Shown here in pieces: positions 19,263-26,019 of a stretch of DNA of 64,000 nt. Below the pieces are notes generated by a model. That model was given only the letters and a program-made list of their open reading frames with translations, made no database searches and had not been told where the DNA came from. Origin of the DNA: the human T2T-CHM13v2.0 reference genome, Homo sapiens; the NCBI GenBank assembly GCA_009914755.4, contig CP086569.2, positions 16,032,001 through 16,096,000 on the forward strand, in the 5' to 3' direction. Both the position numbers and the translations under genes were made by a program. Every line of letters begins with the position of its first letter. The stretch's first letter is position 1.

Positions 19263-20886
19263 TTTTAAATATTGTTTAAAAAGTTACTTTAAGTACTAAA
19301 GTCTCAGTTTCCCTTGACGCTAAAAGCATACAATGCTTCTGTAATTAATAATGCTTTTATTCTTCCATCAGTTTTATAAAGATGAAGTCATCCATGGGTG
19401 TCCTATTTTCACGTTGTTCCCACAGATCCTTTTGTCTGTTATAAAGTAGAGATAAATACCAGCATCAAAAACTTAAGGAAAAATGGAGGTGTTTACTTGT
19501 AGATAGATAGCTCTTTTTTTTTTTTTTGCATTTCTGTGAAAATCAAGTGAAAAACTACCAAGTTATAAATTAGTTTTCCAACCTGTTTCATCAGTACAAA
19601 CAATCTGTGAAATTTCTAAGGGAAAGTCAACTTTCTCACATACAACCACATATCTCAAAACTATAGAGCATTGTCTTGTTTTCTTTTCTTTCATCCAAAA
19701 ATTTACTACGTGGATATGATCACCTAATTGCTGATATTTGATTGCTCTAAACCAAGACCGTAAGTTGTTTAAAAAGGTGGTTATGTTAATATGTTTTGAT
19801 TATTTTCATTCAATTGTTTTAACTGGTCTAATTACCCATATTAATCAAATGGTACATTTCAAATCTAACTTATTAGAAAATATGGATTCCTTAAGAAAAA
19901 TCAATTATATAGGAGGTCACAAAGTTATGGATTTCTTAAGTAAAATTAGTTATCTAGAAGGTCACTTTCATAGGAAATATATGTATATTTTAAAGATACT
20001 GGTGTAAATGTCAGATATGAATTGAACTTATTTCTTTACAACTAATTGGTATGTGTCAAAAAAATCTTTACAAATCTTCATAATAGTAATGGAAGCAAAA
20101 AAATATATATTTTCATTTTGTTTTTTACTTTCTTTAATTTATGTCATTTATATCAGTAGTCCAATTTATTTTAGGACCTGGGAACACAAATTTATATTTC
20201 TTTTTAAACTGAATGCAATAACAAGATAAATATGATTACATATTTCTTCCAGAAGAAATCTCACATAAAACTCTAATTTCAATTTATAGCATTTTCAACC
20301 ACATACTTCATTAATACTACACTACAGACCAGCATTTGCAAAAATAAAAGCTGGTTATAAGAAAAAAAAAGTTATTGTGGATTTTACATAACCATTAGGG
20401 TCATTAAGAATGACAGATAGGATTTTTGCCTCAATGTTCATCAAGGATATTTGTCTAAAATTCTCTTTTTTGGTTGTGTCTCTACCCAGCTTTGGTATCA
20501 GGATGATTCTGGCCTCATAACATGAGTTACGGAGGATTCCCTCTTTTTCTATTGATTGGAATATTTTCAGAAGGAATGGTACCAGTTCCTCCTTGTACCT
20601 CTGGTAGAATTCAGCTGTGAATCCATCTGGTACTGGACTCTTTTTGGTTGGTAAGCTATTGATTATTGTCACAATTCAGAGACTGTTATTGGTCTATTCA
20701 GAGATTCAAATTCTTCCTGGCTAGTGTTGGGAGAGTGTATGTGTCAAGGAATTTATCCATTTCTTCTAGATTTTCTAGTTTATTTGTGTAGAACTGTTTG
20801 TAGTATTCTCTGATGGTAGTTTGTATTTCTGTGGGATTGGTGGTGATATCCCCTTTATCATTTTTTATTGCATCTATTTGATTCTT

Positions 20887-21618
20887 CTATCTTTTTTTCT
20901 TTATTAGTCTTGCTAGCAGTCTATCAATTTTGTTGATCCTTTCAAAAAACCAGCTCCTGGATTCATTAATTTTTTGAAGGGTTTTTTGTGTCTCCATTTC
21001 CTTCAGTTCTGCTCTGATTTTAGTTATTTTTTGCCTTCTGCTAGCTTTTGAATGTGTTTGCTCTAGCTTTTGTAGTTCTTTTAATTGTAATGTTAGGGTG
21101 TCAATTTTGGATCTTTTCTGCTTTGTCTTGTGGGAATTTAGTGCTATGAATTTCCCTCTACAAACTACTTTGATTGTGTCCCAGAGATTCTGGTATGTTG
21201 TGTCTTTGTTCTCATTGGTTTCAAAGAACATCTTTATTTCTGCCTTCATTTCGTTATGTAACCAGTAGTCATTCAGGAGCAGGTTGTTCAGTTTCCATGT
21301 AGTTGAGCAGTTTTGAGTGAGTTTCTTAATCCTGAATTCTAGTTTGATTGCACTGTGGTCTGAGAGATAGTTTGTTATAATTTCTCTTCTTTTACATTTG
21401 CTGAGGAGAGCTTTATTTCCAACAATGTGGTCAATTTTGGAATAGGTGTGGTGTGGTGCTGAAAAAAATGTATATTCTGTTGATTTGGAGTGGAGAGTTC
21501 TGTAGATGTCTATTAGGTCCGCTTGGTGCAGAGCTGAATTCAATTCCTGTGTATCCTTTTTAACTTTCTGTCTCACTGATCTGTCTAATGTTGACAATGG
21601 GGTGTTAAAGTCTCCCAT
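20887..21618 (-). pseudogene. L1 ORF2 endonuclease-domain remnant (243 aa ORF) within the inverted segment
   Basis: [14 protein letters not shown]...SDHSAIKLE...[12 protein letters not shown] is L1 ORF2p EN sequence and is truncated. Confidence 0.85.
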
Positions 21619-22286
21619 TATTATTGTGTGGGAGTCTAAGTCTCTTTGTAGGTCACTCAGGACTTGCTTTATGAATCTGGGTGCTCCTGTATTGGGTGCA
21701 TATATATTTAGGATAGTTAGCTCTTCTTGTTGAATTGATCCTTTACCATTCTGTAATGGCCTTCTTTGTCTCTTTTGATCTTTGTTGGTTTAAAGTCTGT
21801 TTTATCAGAGACTAGGATTGCAACCCCTGCCTTTTTTGGTTTTCTATTTGCTTGGTAGATCTTCCTCCATCCTTTTATTTTGAGCCTATGTGTGTCTCTG
21901 CATGTGAGATGGGTTTCCTGAACATAACACACAGATGGGTCTTGTCTCTTTATCTAATTTGCCAGTCTGTGTCTTTTAATTGGAGCATTAAGTCCATTTA
22001 CATTTAAAGTTAATATTGTTATGTGTGAATTTGAACCTGTCATTATGATGTTAGCTGGTTATTTTGCGTGTTAGTTGATGCCGTTTCTTCCTAGTCTCGA
22101 TGGTCTTCACATTTTGGCATGATTTTGCAGCAGCTGGTACCAGTTGTTCCTTTCCATGCTTAGTGCTTTCTTCAGGAGCTCTTTTAGGGCAGGCCTGGTG
22201 GTGACAAAATCTCTCAGCATTTGCTTGTCTGTAAAGTATTTTATTTCTCCTTCACTTATGAAGCTTAGTTTGGCTGGATATGAAAT

Positions 22287-23033: not shown

Positions 23034-23732
23034 TGCTGGTGAGGAACTGCAATCCTTTGAAAGAGGAAAAGTGCTCTGCTTTTTAGAGTTTCCAGTTTTT
23101 CTGCTCTGTTTTTTCCCTATCTTTGTGGTTTTGTCTACTTTTGGTCTTTGATGATGGTGAGGTACAGATGGGTTTTTGGTGTGGATGTCCTTTCTCTTTG
23201 TTAGTTTTCCTTCTAACAGACAGGACCCTCAGCTGCAGATCTGTTGGAGTTTGCTAGAGGTCCACTCCAGACCCTGTTTACCTGGGTATCAGCAGTGGTG
23301 TCTGCAGAACAGTGGTTTATTGTGAACCACGAATGCTGCTGAATGATCATTCCTCTGGAAGTTTTGTCTCAGAGGTGTACGCGGCCGTGTACATTGTCAG
23401 TCTGCACCTACTGGGGTGTGCCTCAAAAATCTTCAATAAAATACTGACAAGCTGAGTCCAGCAGCACATCAAAAAGCTTATCCACCATGATCAAGTGGGC
23501 TTCATCCCTGGGATGCAAGACGGGTTCAGTATACGCAAATCAATAAATGTAATCCAGCATAAAAAGAGAACCAAAGACAAAAACCACATGATTATCTGAA
23601 TAGATGCAGAAAAGGCCTTTGACAAATTCAACAACCTTCATGCTAAAAACTCTCCATAAGTAGGTATTGATAGGATGTATCTCAAAATAATAACAGCTAC
23701 CTATGACAAATCCACAGCCAATGTCATACTGA

Positions 23733-24497
23733 ATGGACAAACTGGAAGCATTCCCTTTGAAATCTGGCACAAGACAGGTATGCCCTCTCTCACCACTCCT
23801 ATTCAACATAGTGTTGGAAGTTCTGGCCAGGGCAATTAGGCAGGAGAAGGAAATCAAGGGTACTCAATTAGTAAAAGAGGAAGTCAAATTGACCCTGTTT
23901 GCAGATGACATGATTGTATATCTAGAAAACCCCATTGACTCAGCCCAAAATCTCCTTAAGCTGATAAGCAACTTCAGCAAAGTCTCAGGATACAAAATCA
24001 ATGTGCAAAAATCACAAGCATTCTTAAACACCAATAACAGTCAAACAGAGAGCCAAATCGTGAGTGAACTCCCATTCACAATTGCTTCAAAGAGAATAAA
24101 ATACCTAGGAATCCAACTTACAATGGACGTGAAGGATCTCTTCAAGGAGAACTACAAACCACTGCTCAATGAAATTAAAGAGGATACAAAGAAATGGAAG
24201 AACATTCCATGCTCATGGGTAGGAAGAGTCAATATCATGAAAATGGCCATACTGCCAAAGGTAATTTATAGATTCAATGCCATCCCATTCAAGCTACCAA
24301 TGACTTTCTTCACAGAATTGGAAAAAACTTCTTTAAAGTTCATATGGAACCAAAAAAGAGCCCTCATCACCAAGTCAATCTTAAGGCAAAAGACCAAAGC
24401 TGGAGGCATCATGCTACCTGCCTTCAAACTATACTACAAAGCTACAGTAACCAAAACAGCATGGTACTGGTACCAAAACAGAGATATAGATCAATAG
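23733..24497 (+). pseudogene. L1 ORF2 reverse-transcriptase-domain remnant (254 aa)
   Basis: ...[32 protein letters not shown]...[13 protein letters not shown] (YxDD box)... Confidence 0.85.
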
Positions 24498-26019
24498 AAC
24501 AGAATAGAGCCCTCAGAAATAACGCTGCAAATCTACAACTATCTGCTCTTTGACAAACCTGAGAAAAACAAGCAATGGGGAAAGGATTCCCTATTTAATA
24601 AACGGTGCTGGGAAAACTGTCAAGCCATATGTAGAAAGCTGAAACTGGATCCCTTCCTTACACCTTATACAAAAATCAATTCAAGATGGATTAAAGACTT
24701 AAATGTTAGACCTAAAGCCATAAAAACCCTAGAAGAAAACCTAGGCATTACCATTCAGGACATAGGCACGGCAAGGACTTCATGTCCAAAACACCGAAAG
24801 CAATGGCAACAAAAGCCAAAATTGACAAATGGGATCTAATTAAACTAAAGCGCTTCTGCGCAGCAAGGGAAAGTACCATCAGAGTGAACAGGTAACCCAC
24901 AAAATGGGAGAAAATATTCGCAACCTACTCATCTGACAAAGGGCTAATATCCAGAATCTACAATGAACTCAAACAAATTGACAAGAAAAAAACAAACAAC
25001 CCCATCAAAAAGTGGGCGAAGGACATGAACAGACACTTCTCAAAAGAAGACATTTATGCGGCCAAAAAAACACATGAAAAAATGCTCACCATCACTGCCC
25101 ATCAGAGAAATGCAAATCAAAATCACAATGAGATATCATCTAACACCAATTAGAATGGTGATCATTAAAATTCAGGAAACAACAGGTGCTGGAGAGGAGT
25201 GGAGAAATAGGAACACTTTTATACTGTTGGTGGGACTGTAAACTAGTTCAACCATTGTGGAAGTCAGTATGGTGATTCCTTAGGGATCTAGAACTAGAAA
25301 TACCATTTGACCCAGCCATCCCATTACTGGGTATATAACCAAAGGACTACAAATCATGCTGCTATAAAGACACATGCACACGTATTTTTATTGTGGCACT
25401 ATTCTCAATAGCAAAGACTTGGAACCAACCCGAATGTCCAACAATGATAGACTGGATTAAGAAAATGTGGCACATGTACACCTTGGATTACTACACAGCC
25501 ATAAAAAATGATGAGTTCATGGCCTTTGTAGGGACATGGATGAAATTGGAAATCATCATTCTCAGTAAACTATCACAAGAACAAAAAACCAAACACCGCA
25601 TATTCTCTCTCATAGGTAGGAATTGAACAGTGAGAACACATGGACACAGGAAGGGGAACATCACACTCTGGGGACTGTTTTGGGGTGGGAGGAGGGGGGA
25701 GGGATAGCATTGGGAGATATACCTAGTGCTAGATGGCGAGTTAGTGGGTGCAGCGCACCAGCTTGGCACATTTATGCATATGTAACTAACCTGCACATTG
25801 TGCACATGTACCCTAAAACTTCAAGTATAATTAAAAAAAACATTAAAAATAATAATAATAAAAAAGAATGACAGGTGATCCAAAATACAACCTCCCTCAG
25901 ACTAATACAAATTTATCTTATTTTAAAATACTAGTGGAGTATCATTTTGAAAACTATTTTCGTAGATTATCACATACTCTTGTAAATGCTTTCTTGTATA
26001 TTATCTAGAATACTGTTTG

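What the first reader, a model, noticed from the sequence alone, without database searches (positions are those of the whole stretch)
20407..25874. Near-full-length L1PA insertion with a 5' inversion, the signature of twin priming
Window 20420-23422 is L1 in reverse orientation (distal 5'UTR, ORF1, ORF2 up to about nt 2290). 23423-25863 is L1 in direct orientation (ORF2 from about nt 2280 to the poly-A). The two segments meet at the same ORF2 motif ((gc)aaaaatcct and tcaaaaatcttcaataaaatactg). The structure is flanked by an 11-bp TSD AAGAATGACAG (20407-20417 and 25864-25874). The inverted and direct segments are contiguous in L1 coordinates and share one TSD. This is therefore a single retrotransposition event with twin priming, not two independent insertions. 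At about 5.4 kb it is unusually long for an inverted L1.
Basis: seen in the sequence. Interest (0 to 1): 0.5.

Follow-up and report, generated by a model that had tools for sequence, protein, structure and literature searches.

The report
Old L1 retrotransposon with inverted front half
This is one dead, roughly 5.4-kb primate LINE-1 copy whose front 3 kb was pasted in backwards during insertion (the well-known "twin priming" outcome seen in about a fifth to a third of L1 insertions), so it is real but ordinary.

Summary
An exact 11-bp direct repeat, AAGAATGACAG, lies at 20406-20416 and 25864-25874.

Between the repeats are two L1 arms in opposite orientation:
- 20419-23424 (minus strand) holds 304 nt of distal 5'UTR, ORF1, the 63-nt spacer and ORF2 codons 1-543.
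- 23424-25831 (plus strand) holds ORF2 codons 540-1275 and the 3'UTR. A 32-nt A-rich tail follows.

I compared the region with a full-length L1PA 1.6 kb away in the same window and with an intact L1 recovered from a public contig. Each comparison gives exactly two collinear blocks, and the blocks overlap by 10 nt of L1 sequence (canonical nt 3609-3618).

The two arms are equally diverged from an L1PA consensus (5.3% versus 4.9%, p=0.53). The outer end of the inverted arm has no poly-T run. The first-nick site reads TTCTT/AATG.

A single twin-priming retrotransposition is therefore the best explanation (about 0.9). The copy carries the 129-nt ZNF93-target segment, so it is older than L1PA2/L1HS; my rough estimate is L1PA4-6.

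At 5.4 kb it is much longer than the published median of about 1.4 kb, but it is not different in kind. This is already-known biology of low interest.

The parts
20406..20416 (+). 5' target-site duplication, AAGAATGACAG
   Evidence: One of only two exact copies in the window. It could be 13 bp with one mismatch (AAGAATGACAGAT versus AAGAATGACAGGT).
20417..20418 (+). Two bases (AT) between the TSD and the L1 sequence. They are either untemplated extra nucleotides or the end of an imperfect 13-bp TSD.
   Evidence: The alignment to the neighbouring L1 stops at 20419.
20419..23424 (-). Inverted (internally primed) L1 arm, 3006 nt. It equals L1 nt 731-3742 of the long-form neighbour; its 3' limit is canonical nt 3618.
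   Evidence: 91.8% identity to the neighbouring full-length L1. 94.6% identity to the intact L1 in locus L105, ref 3606->771.
20419..22043 (-). ORF2 5' part, codons 1-543 (EN domain and the start of RT), with stops and frameshifts
   Evidence: ORF2 ATG at 22043. Pfam Exo_endo_phos match. PDB 8sxt residues 468-543 aligned.
22044..22106 (-). 63-nt inter-ORF spacer
22107..23120 (-). ORF1 (1014 nt). The start codon is mutated to ATA and there is one internal stop.
   Evidence: Pfam Transposase_22, Tnp_22_dsRBD and Tnp_22_trimer, E 1e-28 to 5e-56.
23121..23424 (-). Distal 304 nt of the 5'UTR. It includes the ~129-nt ZNF93-target segment (roughly 23249-23380) that L1PA2/L1HS lack.
   Evidence: The TCCAGAGG and CAGGGTCTGGAG motifs are present. 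The short-form reference L105 stops aligning at window 23248.
23424..23424 (.). Inversion junction. This single C can be assigned to either arm (1-nt microhomology), and there is no filler.
   Evidence: Both alignments include position 23424.
23424..25626 (+). Direct (poly-A-primed) arm, ORF2 codons 540-1275 (RT and C-terminal part), with stops and frameshifts. It starts at canonical L1 nt 3609.
   Evidence: PDB 8uw3 residues 535-609 aligned. Pfam RVT_1 match. ORF2 stop codon at 25624-25626. Block ref 3597->6006 on L105.
25627..25831 (+). 3'UTR (205 nt), ending ...AAGTATAAT
25832..25863 (+). Degenerate A-rich tail (32 nt, 75% A)
25864..25874 (+). 3' target-site duplication, AAGAATGACAG

Best explanation
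One L1PA RNA was inserted in a single target-primed reverse-transcription event that used two primers (twin priming).

Steps:
1. L1 endonuclease nicked the bottom strand at 5'-TTCTT/AATG-3'. The freed 3' end primed cDNA synthesis on the poly-A tail. That cDNA ran back to L1 nt ~3609 and became the direct arm.
2. The top strand was nicked 11 (or 13) nt downstream. Its 3' end primed on the same RNA internally, at nt ~3618, and was extended towards the RNA 5' end as far as nt ~731 of the 5'UTR. That cDNA became the inverted arm.
3. After the RNA was removed, the two cDNA 3' ends were joined with 1 nt of overlap, and the gaps were filled.

The product reads: TSD, antisense L1 nt 3618->731, sense L1 nt 3609->end plus A-tail, TSD. 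Ten L1 nucleotides are copied into both arms.

The copy was non-autonomous from birth, because it lacks a promoter and ORF2 is split. It has since decayed by about 5% from a young L1PA consensus.

Shown by sequence: the anatomy, the coordinates, the equal divergence of the arms and the single TSD pair. Inferred: the order of events, that one RNA served as template for both arms, and the end-joining step.
For: - One exact TSD pair encloses both arms.
- Only two collinear blocks of opposite strand appear, against an in-window full-length L1PA and against an independent intact L1.
- The arm ends fall at L1 nt 3618 and 3609. This 10-nt overlap lies inside the published range (median 12 bp, quartiles 4-17; PMC12016303). 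My estimate is that two unrelated truncation points would land within 10 nt of each other with a chance of about 21/6000.
- The A-rich tail is present only at the 3' end of the direct arm. The outer end of the inverted arm has no T-run and no second TSD.
- The nick site TTCTT/AATG is endonuclease-like.
- The arms are equally diverged: 5.30% versus 4.88% from a long-form L1PA consensus (Fisher p=0.53); 93-95% identity to each of 26 near-full-length references; outgroup-polarised private branches of 2.8% versus 3.6% (p=0.15).
- The mechanism is common: 18% of germline polymorphic L1s (PMC12016303) and 31% of human- and chimpanzee-specific L1s (PMC2912911) are 5'-inverted.
- A second 5'-inverted L1 lies in the same window at 38806-39594.
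Against: - The 5' junction shows no microhomology and has two unexplained bases (AT). Kojima reports extra nucleotides in only 3.9% of 5'-inverted L1s and a lack of microhomology in only 4.6% (PMC2912911). With about 3-5% substitution since insertion, the original junction may be obscured.
- The inversion junction has only 1 nt of overlap.
- No empty orthologous site was available, so single-step insertion is inferred and not observed.
- Sequence alone cannot show that both arms came from the same RNA molecule.
Confidence: 0.9

Rival explanations
1. Two RNAs were used in one integration event (a 'dual priming' type of event, or a template switch). The bottom-strand primer copied one L1 RNA from its poly-A tail, and the top-strand primer annealed internally to a second L1 RNA of the same subfamily.
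For: Nothing in the sequence distinguishes one RNA from two. The 10 shared nucleotides differ at one position (CAAAAATCCT versus CAAAAATCTT), which could be a difference between source RNAs or a later mutation. The dual-priming concept is described in PMC2837659.
Against: Two unrelated RNAs have no reason to be copied to and from positions only 10 nt apart. That proximity is what a single shared template predicts. The arms are equally diverged.
Confidence: 0.04
2. Two independent insertions: a 2.4-kb 5'-truncated L1 plus a separate antisense 3-kb L1 fragment that happened to land at its 5' edge.
For: L1s do often nest or cluster. This window holds at least five other L1 pieces.
Against: The inverted arm has no poly-A/T tail and no TSD of its own. 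The only TSD pair encloses both arms. The arm ends coincide within 10 nt of L1 sequence. The arms are equally diverged.
Confidence: 0.02
3. Rearrangement after insertion. A 5'-truncated, collinear 5.4-kb L1 inserted normally. Its 5' 3 kb was inverted later, either by recombination with the oppositely oriented full-length L1 1.6 kb downstream or by break repair.
For: An inverted L1PA partner with 92% identity lies at 27512-33597.
Against: Recombination between inverted repeats flips the DNA between them. It leaves each repeat collinear and swaps TSD partners. Here both elements keep matched TSDs: AAGAATGACAG for the focal copy and AGAAATAGGTA for the neighbour. A break-repair inversion would need one breakpoint exactly at the L1/TSD boundary and a 10-nt duplication, and this exact structure is already the standard product of a common insertion pathway.
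Confidence: 0.02

Closest known systems
Twin-priming (5'-inverted) L1 insertions (Ostertag and Kazazian 2001, as described in PMC12016303, PMC2912911 and PMC2837659)
   Same: One TSD pair. An antisense 5' arm joined to a sense 3' arm that carries the poly-A tail. Arm ends adjacent in L1 coordinates with a small overlap of 10 nt. An endonuclease-like first-nick site. A 5' truncation of the inverted arm.
   Different: It is longer than typical: 3.0 + 2.4 kb against germline medians of 0.75 + 0.57 kb, with the breakpoint in mid-element and not in the 3' third. The 5' junction shows no microhomology and has two extra bases, a minority pattern (3.9% and 4.6% in PMC2912911).
Primate L1PA elements with the long 5'UTR form (L1PA3-long, L1PA4 and older), which contain the 129-bp ZNF93 binding segment (10.1101/429613; PMC5860796)
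   Same: The focal 5'UTR remnant carries the ~129-nt segment that is absent from the 42 short-form (L1HS/L1PA2-type) copies and present in the 70 long-form copies recovered from public contigs. ORF1, the 63-nt spacer, ORF2 and the 3'UTR are collinear with an intact L1.
   Different: It lacks the first ~730 nt (the promoter). It has no intact ORF. The exact subfamily was not determined because no Dfam or RepeatMasker library was available.
The second 5'-inverted L1 in the same window (38806-39594)
   Same: The same architecture: a 12-bp TSD (AAAAGAGGTTTA), an antisense arm followed by a sense arm, and a poly-A tail.
   Different: It is far shorter (about 0.15 + 0.6 kb). It has a 177-nt gap, not an overlap, between the arms in L1 coordinates.

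Membership tests
LINE-1 (L1PA) retrotransposon copy | Encodes ORF1p (trimerisation, RBD-like and dsRBD-like domains) and ORF2p (apurinic-type endonuclease plus reverse transcriptase) in the canonical order, with the 63-nt spacer | tested here: met
   Pfam PF17489, PF02994, PF17490, PF03372 and PF00078. PDB human ORF2p matches, E 1e-31 to 1e-39. 63-nt spacer. 94.6% DNA identity to an intact L1.
LINE-1 (L1PA) retrotransposon copy | 3'UTR followed by a poly-A tail, flanked by target-site duplications, at an endonuclease-type nick site (TTTT/AA-like) | tested here: met
   32-nt tail that is 75% A. 11-bp TSD. The bottom strand reads TTCTT/AATG, a one-mismatch variant of the consensus.
Twin-priming 5'-inverted L1 insertion | Two arms of one L1, in opposite orientation, enclosed by a single TSD pair, with the antisense arm on the 5' side | tested here: met
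Twin-priming 5'-inverted L1 insertion | The start of the inverted cDNA and the end of the non-inverted cDNA lie close together on the L1 sequence (small gap or overlap) | tested here: met
   10-nt overlap: long-form nt 3733-3742, canonical nt 3609-3618. PMC12016303 reports a median overlap of 12 bp.
Twin-priming 5'-inverted L1 insertion | [quoted passage not shown] | tested here: met
Twin-priming 5'-inverted L1 insertion | Microhomology between the end of the target site and the L1 sequence at the 5' junction (found in about 95% of cases, PMC2912911) | tested here: not met
   No shared bases, and two extra bases (AT) or a mismatched 13-bp TSD. This is a frequent accompaniment of twin priming, not a strict requirement, and 3-5% decay since insertion may hide it.
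Twin-priming 5'-inverted L1 insertion | Microhomology at the inversion junction | tested here: inconclusive
   One shared base (C at 23424). That is no more than chance would give.
Twin-priming 5'-inverted L1 insertion | Both arms have the same age and source lineage | tested here: met
   5.30% versus 4.88% from the consensus, p=0.53. Private branches of 2.8% versus 3.6%, p=0.15. Similar identity to 26 references.
Twin-priming 5'-inverted L1 insertion | A single-step insertion: the orthologous empty site holds one copy of the TSD and neither arm | not testable with these tools
   No primate genome collection is available. Exact flank patterns found nothing in metagenome or prokaryote contigs. 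ORF look-ups found nothing.
L1PA long-5'UTR forms (L1PA3-long and older) | Presence of the ~129-nt ZNF93-target segment between ACCTCAC and CCAACAGACCTGCAG | tested here: met
   The focal copy and its neighbour both have it. Among the recovered L1 copies, this spacing is 148 nt in long-form copies and 20 nt in short-form copies.
Specific L1PA subfamily (L1PA3 to L1PA7) | Subfamily-diagnostic substitutions relative to curated consensus sequences | not testable with these tools
   No Dfam or Repbase consensus library is available. The only indications are about 5% divergence from a young L1PA consensus and an approximately 3% private branch.

The most novel reading that the evidence does not exclude
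The 10-nt sequence shared by both arms might not come from two independent priming events. It might instead be a staggered cut by L1 endonuclease in the nascent L1 cDNA/RNA duplex. This idea was raised, and not supported, in PMC12016303, prompted by overlap lengths that resemble TSD lengths. In this copy, the antisense strand at the end of the direct-arm cDNA reads ...GGATTTTT/GCC, an endonuclease-type TTTT/G site. Only 1.2-2.3% of positions in this element would show such a motif. This is a post hoc observation on one event, and the other edge of the overlap (CCT/CAAT) is not endonuclease-like.
Probability: 0.03. Interest if true: 0.45.

Novelty: already known. Interest (0 to 1): 0.08.

Why it matters
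It matters very little beyond correct annotation. The two adjacent, oppositely oriented L1 blocks should be annotated as one insertion event and not as two repeats. The copy is a clean, long example of twin priming with a 10-nt overlap. It shows that the internally primed cDNA can run for 3 kb, through ORF2, ORF1 and into the 5'UTR. The element has no promoter and no intact ORF, so no activity is expected. Once primate orthologues are compared, its presence or absence could serve as a simple phylogenetic marker.

Tried and rejected
1. An RNA hairpin at the breakpoint. The focal sequence ATTGAGGcaaaaatCCTCAAT folds at -6.7 kcal/mol (z = -2.3). However, the stem depends on a G found in none of 31 other L1PA copies that span the site, all of which have T. 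The T version does not fold, and the old L1 used as outgroup also has T. The G is therefore most likely a mutation after insertion, and I rejected the idea.

2. Recombination with the inverted neighbouring L1. I rejected this because both elements keep matched TSDs.

3. Looking for the same locus elsewhere, to test for an empty or filled site.
- ORFs that span the 5' junction or lie inside the direct arm are not on record.
- Exact 25- and 26-nt flank patterns gave no hit in metagenome contigs or genome contigs.

4. Ostertag and Kazazian 2001 (PMC311219) and Szak 2002 (PMC134481) are not held in the library. Frequencies and lengths therefore come from PMC12016303 and PMC2912911. The per-insertion table (S12) that would have given a length percentile was not found in the stored supplement text; its file was cut when stored.

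5. An Rfam scan of the whole window found nothing at gathering thresholds.

6. The choice between a 13-bp TSD with one mismatch and an 11-bp TSD plus two extra bases could not be settled from one decayed copy.
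Full report
**1. What is in the sequence**

The 11-mer AAGAATGACAG occurs exactly twice in the 64-kb window, at 20406-20416 and 25864-25874. Chance predicts 0.13 matches, and no shuffle reached two.

Between the two copies, AT skew flips from strongly negative to strongly positive at about 23400. Translation identifies the content.
- Minus strand of 20419-23424: an L1 ORF1, the inter-ORF spacer, and the endonuclease and N-terminal RT parts of ORF2.
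- Plus strand of 23424-25626: the rest of ORF2.

Pfam confirms the three ORF1p domains, Exo_endo_phos and RVT_1. Solved human ORF2p structures align with E values of 1e-31 to 1e-39. They put the last codon of the inverted arm at residue 543 and the first codon of the direct arm at residue 540.

Detailed anatomy:

| Feature | Window position |
|---|---|
| ORF1 start, mutated to ATA | 23120-23118 |
| ORF1 stop | 22109-22107 |
| Inter-ORF spacer | 63 nt |
| ORF2 ATG | 22043 |
| ORF2 stop | 25624-25626 |
| 3'UTR | to 25831 |
| Tail (32 nt, 75% A) | to 25863 |

No ORF is intact.

**2.

The window supplies its own reference. A full-length L1PA lies on the minus strand from 33597 (L1 nt 1, GGGGGCTGGAGCCAAGATGGCC...) to about 27512. 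It has its own 11-bp TSD, AGAAATAGGTA.

Against this reference the focal region gives:
- window 23424->20419 = L1 nt 731-3742 (91.8% identity);
- window 23424->25864 = L1 nt 3733-6086 (92-93% identity).

For an independent reference I scanned public metagenome contigs with a conserved 27-nt L1 5'UTR pattern. This recovered 120 contaminating primate L1 loci. One of them, L105, has intact ORF1 (338 aa) and ORF2 (1275 aa). Its L1 sequence begins 12 nt inside the canonical start.

Against L105 the region 20000-26300 gives exactly two blocks:
- window 20419-23248 (minus strand) = ref 3606->771;
- window 23424-25826 (plus strand) = ref 3597->6006.

In canonical numbering (ORF1 starts at 911, ORF2 at 1991), the inverted arm starts at nt 3618 and the direct arm ends at nt 3609. 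These values are the L105 coordinates plus 12.

**3. Junctions**

- *5' junction:* ...AAGAATGACAG|AT|AGGATTTTTGCC... There are two bases that are neither TSD nor L1, and there is no microhomology. Alternatively the TSD is 13 bp with one mismatch.
- *Inversion junction:* ...GGGGTGTGCCT[C]AAAAATCTTCAAT... The C at 23424 fits both the antisense 5'UTR and the sense ORF2, and there is no filler.
- *Shared L1 sequence:* CAAAAATCCT in the inverted arm and CAAAAATCTT in the direct arm. This is 10 nt with one later difference.
- *Reconstructed empty site:* ...GGGTCATTAAGAATGACAGGTGATCC... The first nick on the bottom strand falls at TTCTT/AATG, which is endonuclease-like.
- *Outer end of the inverted arm:* no T-run.
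- *Repeats between the arms:* no long inverted repeat, so the arms carry different parts of L1.

**4. One event or two?**

- Divergence from a consensus of 11 long-form references is 158/2979 = 5.30% for the inverted arm and 110/2255 = 4.88% for the direct arm (Fisher p = 0.53).
- Each arm is 93-95% identical to each of 26 near-full-length references.
- I used the old L1 at 6895-13861 as outgroup to polarise differences from the neighbour. The focal private branch is 2.8% in the inverted arm and 3.6% in the direct arm (p = 0.15).

Equal age, one TSD pair, one tail, and arm ends 10 nt apart together argue for a single event. My estimate is that unrelated truncation points would fall that close with a chance of about 21/6000.

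Recombination with the inverted neighbour is excluded. It would leave both L1s collinear and would swap TSD partners, yet both TSD pairs are intact.

**5. Mechanism**

The structure is the standard product of twin priming. The literature describes it as follows: the poly-A-primed cDNA gives the sense arm, and a second cDNA primed internally from the top-strand nick gives the antisense arm (PMC12016303, PMC2837659, PMC2912911).

Published figures place this copy within the normal range in most respects.

| Property | Published figure | Source | This copy |
|---|---|---|---|
| Frequency of 5' inversion | 18.4% of germline polymorphic L1s; 21.9% of somatic L1 insertions | PMC12016303 | n/a |
| Frequency of 5' inversion | 30.9% of human- and chimpanzee-specific L1s | PMC2912911 | n/a |
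| Arms overlapping | 42% of germline cases; median 12 bp, quartiles 4-17 | PMC12016303 | 10 nt |
| Extra nucleotides at the 5' junction | 3.9% | PMC2912911 | 2 nt (AT), or a mismatched TSD |
| No microhomology at the 5' junction | 4.6% | PMC2912911 | none seen |
| Germline median lengths | 751 bp inverted, 571 bp direct, 1363 bp total | PMC12016303 | 3006 nt, 2408 nt plus tail, 5447 nt between the TSDs |

The 5' junction is the less usual feature, but in a copy with 3-5% decay I would not over-read it. The copy is clearly long, but I could not obtain a percentile, and length does not alter the mechanism.

**6. Which L1?**

The 5'UTR remnant contains the ~129-nt segment that holds the ZNF93 binding site. 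That segment was deleted in later L1PA3, L1PA2 and L1HS (10.1101/429613; PMC5860796).

In the recovered copies, the distance from ACCTCAC to the 27-nt pattern is 20 nt in short-form copies and 148 nt in long-form copies. Classified on the sequence just upstream of the pattern, 42 copies are short-form, 70 are long-form and 8 are unclassified. The focal copy and its neighbour both have the long form.

Divergence is about 5% from a young L1PA consensus, and the private branch is about 3%. From these I infer an age of roughly 15-25 Myr (about L1PA4-6). This is an estimate, not a classification.

**7. Ideas that did not survive**

- *Breakpoint hairpin.* It exists only because of a G that is private to this copy: 0 of 31 other copies have it, and the outgroup has T.
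- *Endonuclease-like TTTTT/G motif at the end of the direct-arm cDNA.* This would be a 1-2% coincidence. It is post hoc, applies to only one of the two overlap edges, and a 287-event study found no such enrichment (PMC12016303). I keep it only as the low-probability novel reading.
- *Finding the locus elsewhere.* All attempts failed.

**8. Verdict**

- The interpretation (a single twin-priming retrotransposition of an L1PA) is supported at about 0.9.
- This is a known phenomenon in an ordinary, dead repeat, so interest is low.

Noticed in passing
window 27493-33613 (minus strand): A full-length L1PA with the long 5'UTR form, starting GGGGGCTGGAGCCAAGATGGCC at 33597. It has an 11-bp TSD, AGAAATAGGTA, at 27493-27503 and 33603-33613, and 5 extra nt between the TSD and L1 nt 1. 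Its tail has become a (TAA)16 microsatellite (27503-27551). It has an ~85-nt deletion in ORF2 relative to the focal copy (focal 24373-24456) and no intact ORF.
   Followed up: partly
window 38806-39594: A second, short 5'-inverted L1. It has a 12-bp TSD, AAAAGAGGTTTA, at 38806-38817 and 39583-39594. The antisense arm runs from ~38818 to 38970 and the sense arm from 38970 to ~39565, followed by a poly-A tail. There is a 177-nt gap, not an overlap, between the arms in L1 coordinates.
   Followed up: partly
window 6895-13861 (plus strand): An older L1 (74-83% identical to the focal copy). It is interrupted at about 7904-8688, where there is an antisense L1 3'-end fragment at 8242-8690 (88% identity), and again at about 12468-13347. 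I used it as an outgroup.
   Followed up: partly
window ~26017-26100 and onward: An Alu-like sequence (ggcgttatggcttatgcctgaaatcacggcactttggcaggctgaggtgggaggattgcttgag...) begins about 140 nt to the right of the 3' TSD. It was recognised by eye only, and Rfam gave no hit at gathering thresholds.
   Followed up: no
window 54335-54865: A tandem duplication with a 284-nt unit, 1.9 copies and 81% match. Its nature is unknown.
   Followed up: no
window 44314-44685; also 37595-37716, 40912-41027, 62546-62634: Long tetranucleotide microsatellites. The longest is (AGAT)n at ~92 copies; the others are (AGAT)n, (AAAG)n and (GATA)n at 22-31 copies each.
   Followed up: no
The hits include assemblies labelled marine and human gut. 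Some contigs carry near-full-length L1s, and L105 has intact ORF1 and ORF2. This indicates primate host or handler DNA contamination in public metagenome assemblies.
   Followed up: partly
locus L007 (positions 96-122 minus strand and 3302-3328 plus strand): One metagenome contig carries the L1 5'UTR pattern on both strands about 3.2 kb apart. This could be a pair of inverted L1 5' ends or an assembly artefact.
   Followed up: no
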